From Negaprion brevirostris (Eukaryota), in the NCBI GenBank assembly GCA_030324005.1, contig JARDVH010000031.1, forward strand, positions 57,083,869-57,147,868: a stretch of DNA of 64,000 bases. The letters run 5' to 3'. How positions within the stretch are numbered: position 1 is the stretch's first letter; every line of letters starts with the position of its first letter. Positions 33,001-36,000 of this stretch are shown here, piece by piece. Position numbers: made by a program.

Positions 33001-36000
33001 GGCACAAACGGTTACCCAGTGGGTCAAGGGCAGGAAATTAAGGGTCAAAGAAAGATTCAATGACATAGATGTTGTGGAACACAAGACAAAGGGCCCAATT
33101 TTACCATATTGATTCTAAATGTTGGGTGGACTTGAAACTGGGAGTGTTTTAGATCTGACTTTTAGACCCGTTCTCAGGCACCCCCTTACGTGATCTGCCT
33201 GAAAAAATATCAGTGATTCCGAACGATACTGCAGAAGCCTGTGGGCAGGACTTAACGCACCCAAAACCCTGCAGCTCCGATTGGCGCCTCCAACTGCAGA
33301 AAAATAGAATGCAGTTCGACTGCCACATGGCTCCCGGGCTGGATAATCCTGCCCCCTAGCTCCCACAGACATTGCCCCACCCCCACAACATTACTGACCC
33401 ACTTATCCCCCCATCCCCCTGCCACTCAGACTGGTCGCTGCACCCCTCCCCCCATCGATCTCAGGCATAGTGACAGCGGGCCCCACTTCCCCTCTACTGA
33501 TCTCAAGCAGAGTGGCAGTGGACCCTCACCTCCACTCCCGCCAACTGCCCCAAACCACCAATCTCAAGCAGAGAGCAGTCAGACACTCAGCACTTACTTC
33601 ATCACTAACTGGAGTGCCCGAATTGGACTTTGTGGAGCATGTCTGTTTTGTGCCGATTCTGGCTGGGCAAACACAGTGGTAAAAGGGGAAGTGCCGGTAA
33701 AGTTGGGCATGCAGCTCAGTAAGTCAATTTAAATGCATGCAAAATATCAGCAGTTCTGAAATGGGCACAGTCCTGATCATGGCCATTTTCGGACTTTGGT
33801 AAATAGGGAACCAAAGCGGAGGCTGGTGCGGATCATGCTATTCGCCTCATGCCCATCTTTAACCAAGTTCTCGCACCCAAAAAGGGTGCAACAGAATGGT
33901 AAAATTAGGCCCAATAGGTTTAAAAATTGAGGCAACACAATTTGTACTGAATGTAGAAGAAGGCTATTTTTTGACATTGTAATCAGATCACTGTCATAAA
34001 CACAAGAATACGTAAAATTGTAACCGTAGTTTCCTTCACAAACCATTACCTTTAAGGCTGAAAGATTTGTTGAATGTAATATGGTGCATTCTCAAGTAAT
34101 TTAAAAAAAAACTGCTTAACTGTATATATCCCAAACATTGCGTGCAAAACATTACTATTAAGTGGCATAATAAGTGATCATGGATGCGAACTTCAGTGGA
34201 ACCTGAGAGTAGCATGACTCCGATATAATCAAACACAACAGTAATTCATTTTCCTTTACTGTATTGCTTAAAGAGAATAGGATTTGGAAGCTAATATTTG
34301 TTTAGCTTGTCCGTCTTAGGTTGAACTAAACCATTTAATGCTTGAAAACATCATTATTCCCTTGTTACCCTTAACTGAATCCTGGGACTGTGACATATTC
34401 CATATGTTGTTGTAATCTCCATGGACATGTGGCTAAGTTAAAGACAAAAACATGTTTCCAATACTCATTCTTTTTACAAAACTGTTTACATACCTCCAAG
34501 CACATACAATAACATATTTTAGAAAATATTGAAGGAATCCTCATATATACATAATTATCAGCACCAAAGGGTGGTGACACATTTTATTCTCCAAGTAGGC
34601 ATTTGTTGAATGAGTTTTATGGTTAATTAATGGAAATTTGGTTACTAGAAGTGATCATATGGAAGTAATTAATTTATCAGCTTCNNNNNNNNNNTTTAGG
34701 TTTGCAAAGGGTGAATCGGCTTCTAGTCTGTACCTGCATTCAATTCGGGTCAAGAGACAAGGTGACACTCCAATGAACAAGTTTGACCTCATCAGGGATC
34801 TCACTTCCACCACAGCCAGAGGCTGAAAAGTAAAAATAAATAGATTCTAATTTTAAATACATCTCCATTTATGTCAAAGCAACGAATCATAAAATCCCTG
34901 CAGTGCAGAAAGAGACCATTTGGCTGCACCAACAACAATGTCACCCAAGCCCCATCTTTGTACCTCATATATTTACCCTGCTAGTCCCCCTAACACTAAG
35001 GAGCAATTTAGTATGTCCAATCTGCCTAACCTGCGCATCTTTGTACTGTGGGAGGAAATCTGCACAGGGAGAATGTGCAAACTCCTCCCAAGACCAGAAT
35101 TGAGCCCAGGTCACACACATCTGTGAGGCAGCAGTGCTAACCATCATGCCACCATGCCACCCAGCATTGAAATGCATTGAAAACTTCATATGACCTAGAT
35201 TAACAGTCTTCAGTGCCCATTTTAATCTCTATGGTTACTTCAAAGATAATGACCTGATATTGTTATCTATGATACATCACGAACTCCTCTCATCATTTTG
35301 CTTTTAGTATCAACACAAAGTGAATAATTTGCTGCAATTTCATATTATCTCTGAAGAACATAACTTTGAGTTCTTTAATTAATGTGCACCTATGAATCAA
35401 AAGTTGTATTAATTTAATATTTTTCCTTGCTTTTCATAATTAACACATTGAACCTTTTGTATGCATTTGATGCACATAAGACAAACTGCTTCTTCACAGC
35501 CATCATTCTCATTTCAGGGACATAGTGCTTCATTTGCAGAAAATCATTTGGTCCAGTGGGTACCATCCCAGCCTCTGACCCAGAAGGTCTGCGTTCAAGT
35601 CCCACTCCAGGACTTGATTCCCAAGGAAGAGGGGTTCAGAATGTGGCAAAGTGGGTTGAGTATGAACTTGTAATTCCTTCCAGTGTATTCAAAGGCAGCC
35701 ATATGATGGAAAGAAACTGGAACCTCTGCTATCCCTTTCCATAACTCCAGGCTATAACATGCATGTAAAAGTATGTGTTGCCACAACAACTCAGATTCCT
35801 TGGAGGCTTGGATAGCTGGTGTGGATCAGGTTGTTGCCAACAGCATGGGGTTCAATCCCTATTCCTATTCCAGCTGTGTTGGATTTGGGACCTGTCTCAT
35901 TGCCTTACCTGTGTTGAAGATTATGGCATTGTGGGTCAGACCTGTCTTTGGGCACAAAACTGAAGATGAAAAAAATGCTTCATTTAAAATAGCATTCATT

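What the first reader, a model, noticed from the sequence alone, without database searches (positions are those of the whole stretch)
34734..34835. STK39/SPAK terminal exon with a rewritten CCT-domain C-terminus
Seen: minus-strand acceptor followed by SGCGGSEIPDEVKL, then VHWSVTLSLDPN*. Relative to the vertebrate end (KLIGFAQLSVS*), the IGF codons are missing, AQLSVS aligns to VHWSVT and the stop is lost. The acceptor AG takes the G of the Ala codon, and a possible donor CAG|gtacag lies 6 nt after the stop. Known: STK39 lies tail-to-tail with B3GALT1; its C-terminal CCT domain binds RFxV motifs in WNK kinases and NKCC1, the cotransporter central to shark rectal-gland salt secretion. Inference: either a duplicated downstream alternative last exon giving a SPAK isoform with altered docking, a dead duplicate, or a lineage-specific change in the real exon.
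Basis: partly seen in the sequence, partly recalled or inferred. Interest (0 to 1): 0.7.

Follow-up and report, generated by a model that had tools for sequence, protein, structure and literature searches.

The report
Shark SPAK last exon, odd tail
This is the last coding exon of a shark's SPAK (STK39) salt-transport kinase gene; its final nine codons do not read as in other vertebrates, but it lies beside a gap in a patchy draft assembly, so it may be a sequence defect, not biology.

Summary
The letters are as described. A strong minus-strand acceptor (exon starts at 34822) is followed by (A)SGCGGSEIPDEVKL, then VHWSVTLSLDPN and a TGA at 34742-34740. The first 15 residues match the end of the human SPAK CCT domain (14 of 15). 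An intact B3GALT1 gene converges on the exon 22.5 kb away. The window is a shark (B3GALT1 96-97% identical to catsharks).

After KL the reading is not canonical. His downstream donor is weak. No second copy of the exon and no canonical tail exist anywhere in the window.

An out-of-frame Val-Ser-stop lies exactly 1 nt before where the canonical stop should be (p about 0.03). This hints at a net -1 indel-type lesion in the real exon.

The exon ends 45 nt from a 10-N run, in a 1.7-kb contig of a draft with 20 N runs in 64 kb. No protein in the searched databases carries this tail.

I could not reach other shark STK39 sequences, reads or RNA-seq. Draft defect (0.4) and a real lineage-specific change (0.3) therefore stay undecided. 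An isoform or a duplicate is not supported. Interest is low until reads or orthologues are checked.

The parts
34823..34845 (-). Pyrimidine-rich tract and AG acceptor of the intron before the exon
   Evidence: One search gives the sequence; 14 of 17 pyrimidines, score in the top 1.05% of 3705 AG sites on the strand.
34779..34822 (-). Conserved part of the exon. CC completes an Ala codon (phase-1 intron), then SGCGGSEIPDEVKL.
   Evidence: SPAK 7o86_A, E 0.0018; 14 of 15 residues equal human SPAK 522-536.
34743..34778 (-). Non-canonical in-frame tail VHWSVTLSLDPN, which replaces IGFAQLSVS
   Evidence: It is no more similar to the canonical tail than chance. It shows perfect hydrophobic/polar alternation over 9 residues (61 of 20,000 random peptides do).
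34740..34742 (-). In-frame stop TGA
34750..34758 (-). Out-of-frame GTC TCT TGA (Val-Ser-stop), 1 nt upstream of where the canonical V-S-stop would lie after KL
   Evidence: frameshift-aware alignment; 1305 of 40,000 random segments match as well within +-3 nt.
34728..34736 (-). It is weak and lies after the stop.
   Evidence: 0.62 bits; 9.5% of GT sites score as well.
34685..34694 (.). 10-N run (assembly gap or mask), 45 nt past the stop. Not filled.
34583..34588 (-). First AATAAA after the stop (152 nt), a possible poly(A) signal
   Evidence: The background rate is one per 1259 nt on this strand, so this is weak evidence.
11274..12254 (+). B3GALT1 coding exon with stop, converging on the STK39 exon (tail-to-tail, 22.5 kb apart)

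Best explanation
The exon is the genuine, single-copy, 3'-terminal coding exon of the shark STK39 (SPAK) gene. It encodes the end of the CCT docking domain. Its first 15 codons are intact. The stretch that should encode the last strand of the domain (IGFAQLSVS-stop) carries an indel-type lesion with a net loss of one base. The old Val-Ser-stop is thereby pushed out of frame, and translation would run 12 codons to a new TGA.

Shown here: the exon identity, the synteny, the single copy, the loss of the canonical tail in frame, and the colinear out-of-frame V-S-stop.

Inferred: in this gap-ridden draft the lesion is more likely a defect of the assembled sequence at a contig end than the animal's real gene. 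On that reading the shark's SPAK would end canonically and dock on RFxV motifs of WNK kinases and NKCC1 in the usual way.
For: Identity: (14 of 15 residues equal human SPAK 522-536, against 10 of 15 for OSR1). The acceptor is in the top 1.05%.

Locus: B3GALT1 converges 22.5 kb away.

Single copy: 1 EIPDEVKL and 0 canonical tails in six frames. The tail DNA is unique in the window.

Frameshift hint: the best frameshift-aware path ends in GTC TCT TGA, 1 nt early. Anchored score 6, matched by 82 of 3789 random segments. The colinear test gives 1305 of 40,000.

Draft quality: the exon ends 45 nt from a 10-N run and lies in a 1.74-kb contig (34695-36432). There are 20 N runs in 64 kb. Of the eight 100-N runs, 3 have flanks sharing exact words of 26-47 nt.

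Prior against a real loss: the tail is identical in human SPAK and OSR1 except V/I. It holds Ile537 of a rigid beta-bridge and strand beta4 of the four-strand sheet.

No protein with this tail was found. At 75-2000 aa there were 7 candidates, none at E<=10. At 23-74 aa there was 1 candidate, none at E<=10. That database does hold catshark and skate proteins. The 1.84-billion representative library gave only one spurious repetitive hit.
Against: No single-base correction restores a canonical tail. The in-frame reading is VHWSVT... and the -1 frame reads CSLECHLVS*. At least 12 of the first 18 tail bases differ from any IGFAQL coding sequence (my count).

A 'scrambled canonical' alignment at DNA level is not above chance (491 of 2837 random segments). 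Neither is a position-free peptide match (2688 of 20,000).

The new tail alternates hydrophobic and polar residues perfectly over 9 residues (61 of 20,000 random peptides). That suits a beta-strand, and an error would give it only by luck.

B3GALT1 in the same window is intact, so the draft is not riddled with indels.

The 10-N run may be a mask rather than a gap. The species' own proteome is not in the protein collection, so the empty searches say nothing about this species. All p-values near 0.03 were chosen after seeing the data.
Confidence: 0.4

Rival explanations
1. Real lineage-specific change. The animal's only STK39 terminal exon truly has this sequence. A complex indel replaced about 20 nt after the Leu536 codon and shifted the frame. 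The resulting SPAK has CCT strand beta4 replaced by a new amphipathic 12-residue tail, which is tolerated or adapted (possibly with OSR1 as back-up).
For: The boundary is sharp: 15 perfect codons and a strong acceptor, then a new tail. The out-of-frame V-S-stop is colinear, as expected for a lesion in the real exon. Perfect hydrophobic/polar alternation over 9 residues occurs in 61 of 20,000 random peptides. I/V, F/W and A/S fall at the first, third and fourth tail positions. In WNK CCT-like domains another strand (beta0) fills the beta4 position, so that slot can be filled by a different sequence. An AATAAA lies 152 nt after the stop. B3GALT1 nearby is intact.
Against: The tail is nearly invariant between the paralogues SPAK and OSR1 and is structurally engaged. 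No database protein carries the new tail, although catshark and skate proteomes are represented, so it is not a general elasmobranch feature. The exon lies beside a gap in a poor draft. The alternation statistic is post hoc.
Confidence: 0.3
2. Partial duplicate or pseudo-exon. A copy of the intron end plus the first 44 nt of the last exon, with a breakpoint after KL. The working terminal exon would lie beyond 64000 or inside a gap.
For: The sharp break after KL would fit a duplication breakpoint. No upstream CCT exon is visible in 34.8-64 kb, so the body of the gene is not shown to be contiguous with this exon.
Against: The window holds only 1 copy of the exon peptide and no canonical tail. 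The exon sits where the terminal exon is expected, facing B3GALT1. The conserved part shows no decay and keeps a top-1% acceptor. A breakpoint would not explain the colinear V-S-stop.
Confidence: 0.1
3. This is the penultimate exon (44 nt, ending at KL, followed by GT). The true last exon (IGFAQLSVS-stop plus 3'UTR) lies downstream but is hidden in an N run, and VHWSVT... is merely intron.
For: The conservation break coincides with a GT. Papers say only that STK39 has 18 exons, that exon 18 holds the 3'UTR, and that mouse Leu502 lies in exon 16. The canonical position of the last intron was therefore not verified here.
Against: CTT|GTTCAT is a very poor donor (-7.6 bits; 82% of all GT sites score as well). 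No IGFAQLSVS-like peptide (<=3 mismatches) appears in any frame between the exon and B3GALT1, and only 330 nominal N lie in those 22.5 kb.
Confidence: 0.07
4. Functional alternative last exon that gives a second SPAK isoform with altered docking, alongside a canonical exon elsewhere.
For: Only the strand-like character of the new tail and the good acceptor.
Against: The window shows no second exon. No protein with this tail is in the databases searched. The tail strings appear in no paper of the library.
Confidence: 0.05

Closest known systems
Human SPAK (STK39) CCT domain, PDB 7o86, residues 522-545
   Same: 14 of 15 residues (A)SGC-GSEIPDEVKL are identical, including Asp532, Lys535 and Leu536 of the rigid beta-bridge region. 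The locus faces B3GALT1; the human arrangement is recalled, not tested.
   Different: Ile537 and strand beta4 (IGFAQLSVS) are replaced in frame by VHWSVTLSLDPN, 3 residues longer. The remainder of the domain is not in the window.
Human OSR1 (OXSR1) CCT domain, PDB 2v3s / 7okw
   Same: Same domain and the same canonical tail except V/I.
   Different: Only 10 of 15 residues match the conserved part of the exon. No OSR1 chain reached E<=10. The exon is therefore SPAK-type, not OSR1-type.
CCT-like (CCTL) domains of WNK kinases, e.g. WNK2 CCTL1, PDB 6elm
   Same: A CCT-type fold in which the canonical beta3/beta4 strands are absent and a different strand (beta0) fills the beta4 position (passages read). 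This is a precedent that the slot tolerates another sequence.
   Different: [quoted passage not shown] Here a new C-terminal peptide would have to do the job. No sequence relation was tested.

Membership tests
STK39/SPAK terminal (CCT-end) exon | Sequence match to the C-terminal part of the SPAK CCT domain | tested here: met
   7o86_A, E 0.0018, the only one of 177,635 PDB sequences at E<=10; 14 of 15 residues for SPAK against 10 of 15 for OSR1.
STK39/SPAK terminal (CCT-end) exon | Canonical last strand and stop (IGFAQLSVS-stop) in frame | tested here: not met
   the in-frame tail VHWSVTLSLDPN resembles the canonical tail no more than chance. A V-S-stop exists only in the -1 frame.
STK39/SPAK terminal (CCT-end) exon | Pfam OSR1_C domain call | tested here: inconclusive
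   0 families at E<=10 for the 42-aa frame. A 26-aa exon alone is too short for the model.
STK39/SPAK terminal (CCT-end) exon | Position at the 3' end of the gene, converging on B3GALT1 | tested here: met
   intact B3GALT1 on the + strand at 11274-12254 and the exon on the - strand at 34822-34740. That this is the general vertebrate arrangement is recalled.
STK39/SPAK terminal (CCT-end) exon | Upstream CCT or kinase exons on the same strand | tested here: inconclusive
   40 single 5-mer hits with <=1 mismatch. The 8 on the minus strand above 34,835 had no second motif in their flanks; 0 hits for three longer motifs and 3 unconvincing hits for a fourth. The exons may lie beyond 64000 or in N runs.
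STK39/SPAK terminal (CCT-end) exon | Transcription, splicing into 34822, and polyadenylation | not testable with these tools
   No RNA-seq or vertebrate genome collection was available.
Duplicated / alternative last exon | A second copy of the exon (canonical or not) in the locus | tested here: not met
   (1 copy in six frames of 64 kb). (the finding's 102 nt and the 86-nt tail have no other match above 17 nt). Sequence beyond the window and inside N runs was not seen.
Draft-assembly artefact | Lies at a contig end or gap in a fragmented assembly | tested here: met
   45 nt from a 10-N run, a 1.74-kb contig, 20 N runs, and overlapping flanks at 3 of 8 100-N runs.
Draft-assembly artefact | Raw reads or an independent assembly disagree with the sequence | not testable with these tools
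   No reads and no shark genomes were available.

The most novel reading that the evidence does not exclude
This shark's single STK39 gene really encodes a SPAK whose last CCT strand (beta4, plus Ile537 of the beta-bridge) has been swapped for a new amphipathic 12-residue tail. This would be a natural experiment in which the secondary pocket and C-terminal strand of the docking domain are rebuilt in an animal whose salt secretion runs on the WNK-SPAK-NKCC1 pathway.
Probability: 0.2. Interest if true: 0.6.

Novelty: new variant of a known kind. Interest (0 to 1): 0.25.

Why it matters
The CCT domain is how SPAK and OSR1 find WNK kinases and the Na-K-Cl cotransporters. Its C-terminal strand is almost invariant between the two human paralogues. 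A vertebrate that truly lives with a rewritten strand would show what that strand and the neighbouring secondary pocket are needed for. It would also be worth a binding assay. If the tail is a draft error, the practical lesson is narrower: gene models built on this assembly would give SPAK a false C-terminus.

Tried and rejected
1. Reaching other shark STK39 proteins through the exon. The 42-aa stop-to-stop frame gave 7 candidates (75-2000 aa) and 1 candidate (23-74 aa), none at E<=10. A canonical SPAK would score only about 21 bits, which I estimate as E near 60 in that database, so these searches could only have found the new tail itself.

2. The representative library gave one hit, P0121. 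It is a 1027-aa repetitive protein with 0 matched stretches, and I judge it spurious.

I used short motif scans instead and found nothing convincing.

4. 'Scrambled canonical tail' at DNA level: not above chance.

5. A transposon or template switch as the source of the tail: the window holds no other copy, and there are no local direct or inverted repeats beyond 9 nt.

6. A splice donor inside the exon: the best is GAA|GTGAGA at 34804 (2.78 bits). It would leave an 18-nt exon, so I rejected it.

7. Literature. No paper on a shark STK39 gene turned up. In some searches the only 'shark' passage I read was a shark-NKCC1 antibody; the other papers I saw as listings only. One search was badly designed and gave nothing. 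The position of the last STK39 intron was not found.

8. An exact look-up of the window's B3GALT1 found it is not in the collection.

Full report
WHAT IS THERE. On the minus strand a pyrimidine-rich tract and an AG (…tttttacttttcag|) precede an exon that starts at 34822. The first two bases, CC, complete an Ala codon, so the intron is phase 1. The frame gives SGCGGSEIPDEVKLVHWSVTLSLDPN and a TGA at 34742-34740. By my crude matrix the acceptor is in the top 1.05% of the 3705 AG sites on the strand. A 10-N run lies at 34685-34694, 45 nt beyond the stop. I did not fill it or look it up.

WHICH GENE. A search of all PDB chains matched 1 of 177,635 distinct sequences at E<=10. That was 7o86_A, the CCT domain of SPAK (E 0.0018), with the match ending at chain residue 101 of 106. 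The construct sequences printed in the structural preprint 10.1101/2021.08.19.456998 (passages and section 5 read) show human SPAK ending …FKLASGCDGSEIPDEVKLIGFAQLSVS and OSR1 ending …FKLASGVEGSDIPDDGKLIGFAQLSIS. The window's 15 residues ASGCGGSEIPDEVKL equal SPAK at 14 positions and OSR1 at 10.

An intact 326-codon ORF at 11274-12251 (+) is B3GALT1. Pfam Galactosyl_T scores E 1.5e-60. In the homologue search 680 of 1060 candidates scored E<=1e-30, and the best were 97% Scyliorhinus torazame, 96% S. canicula and 90% Leucoraja erinacea.

Only this one STK39 exon was found. It was searched on its own. Nothing in the window or among the fetched items was taken for human.

THE TAIL. After KL the in-frame peptide has no detectable likeness to IGFAQLSVS.
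- Ungapped score -6; 28.5% of 20,000 random 9-mers score as well.
- An anchored gapped alignment scores 5; 9.1% score as well.
- By my count, at least 12 of the first 18 tail bases differ from any coding sequence for IGFAQL. Point substitutions in a slowly diverging lineage do not explain that.

A frameshift-aware alignment ends in GTC TCT TGA (34758-34750). This is a Val-Ser-stop in the -1 frame, exactly one base upstream of where the canonical V-S-stop would fall.
- Tested for colinearity within +-3 nt, 1305 of 40,000 random segments do as well.
- The anchored dynamic-programming score is reached by 82 of 3789.
- Without the positional constraint the match is unremarkable (2688 of 20,000; 601 of 3789).
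- A DNA-level 'scrambled canonical tail' alignment is not above chance (491 of 2837).

So there is a modest, post hoc hint (p about 0.02-0.03) that the old end of the gene is still there, shifted by a net -1. There is no proof, and no single-base repair gives a canonical tail. The -1 frame reads CSLECHLVS-stop.

One observation points the other way. VHWSVTLSL alternates hydrophobic and polar residues perfectly over nine positions. Only 61 of 20,000 random stop-free peptides from the window do so. That is what a beta-strand would look like, and it sits at the place of strand beta4.

WHAT THE TAIL DOES IN KNOWN SPAK. According to the preprint, Asp532 and Ile537 form a rigid beta-bridge. The carbonyls of Lys535 and Leu536 are held by Arg459. 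Strands beta3 and beta4 are the last two strands of the four-strand sheet next to the 'secondary pocket'. WNK CCT-like domains lack them but place another strand (beta0) where beta4 lies. The window keeps Asp, Lys and Leu and loses Ile537 and beta4.

DUPLICATE, ISOFORM OR SPLICE SITE?
- Six-frame scans found 1 EIPDEVKL (<=2 mismatches) and 0 IGFAQLSVS (<=3 mismatches) in the whole window. Four GFAQL-like 5-mers appeared, none in context.
- The 102 nt of the finding and the 86 nt from the tail to the N run have no other match above 17 nt.
- There are no local repeats beyond 9 nt.
- The GT right after KL is worse (-7.6 bits; 82% do as well).
- I could not verify from papers where the last intron of STK39 lies. 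They say only that the gene has 18 exons, that exon 18 holds the 3'UTR and that mouse Leu502 is in exon 16. The 'penultimate exon, last exon hidden in a gap' reading stays as a minor rival.
- No upstream CCT exon is visible between 34.8 and 64 kb. It may lie beyond the window or in one of the N runs.

IS THE SEQUENCE TRUSTWORTHY? The window has 20 N runs. The exon sits in a 1.74-kb contig (34695-36432). Three of the eight 100-N runs have flanks sharing exact words of 26-47 nt that end at or near the gap edge, which suggests unmerged overlapping contigs. This is a rough draft, and the odd tail lies 45-84 nt from a contig end. On the other side, B3GALT1 is intact, and the N runs may in part be masks.

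IS THE TAIL SEEN ELSEWHERE? No protein of 75-2000 aa (7 candidates) or 23-74 aa (1 candidate) reached E<=10. That database does hold catshark and skate B3GALT1. A protein with the full 26-residue tail should have scored far better than the 21 bits, so annotated elasmobranch STK39 proteins there do not carry it. However, I could not confirm that they are present. The window's own species is not in the collection: the exact B3GALT1 look-up failed. The representative library gave only a spurious repetitive hit. The tail strings occur in no paper of the library, and no listed paper deals with a shark STK39 gene.

VERDICT. The exon is the SPAK CCT-end exon at the expected locus, present once. Its last nine codons are not canonical in this assembly.
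- The best-supported mechanism is an indel-type lesion (net -1) in the real terminal exon.
- I put 0.4 on it being a defect of the draft, 0.3 on a real lineage-specific change, 0.1 on a partial duplicate, 0.07 on a penultimate exon with a hidden last exon, and 0.05 on a functional alternative exon.
- Reads or one good orthologous sequence would settle it.
- Interest is low (0.25) as it stands. If the tail is real, it would be a moderately interesting natural variant of a well-studied docking domain.

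Noticed in passing
window 11274-12254 (+): Intact single-exon B3GALT1 gene (326 aa). It is 97% identical to Scyliorhinus torazame, 96% to S. canicula and 90% to Leucoraja erinacea. The exact sequence is not in the 15-billion-protein collection.
   Followed up: yes
window gaps 18920-19019, 36433-36532, 42845-42944: Three of the eight 100-N runs have flanks that share exact words of 30, 26 and 47 nt ending at or near the gap edge. This looks like overlapping contigs that were never merged (also visible as a repeated peptide on both sides of the gap).
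   Followed up: partly
window 34884-35158 and at least 10 other places (e.g. 61681-61942, 63117-63243, 42681-42815, 21585-21825, 4288-4490): An interspersed repeat family of about 140-260 nt, 67-80% alike, has one copy in the intron just upstream of the exon. It was not classified.
   Followed up: no
window 23183-23485 (+): Fragment of a reverse transcriptase ORF (Pfam RVT_1, E 5.7e-10), presumably a decayed retroelement in the B3GALT1-STK39 intergenic region.
   Followed up: partly
window 18584-18598 (-): A GFSQL peptide (1 mismatch to GFAQL) in an open frame ending …PGSSDPWV-stop, 16 kb downstream of the exon. I judge it chance, as it is one of four such hits in the window.
   Followed up: partly
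P0121 (representative library): A 1027-aa protein built of many near-identical repeats reached E 2.4e-7 against the 42-aa query with 0 matched stretches. This shows how repeats can inflate a whole-sequence score.
   Followed up: yes
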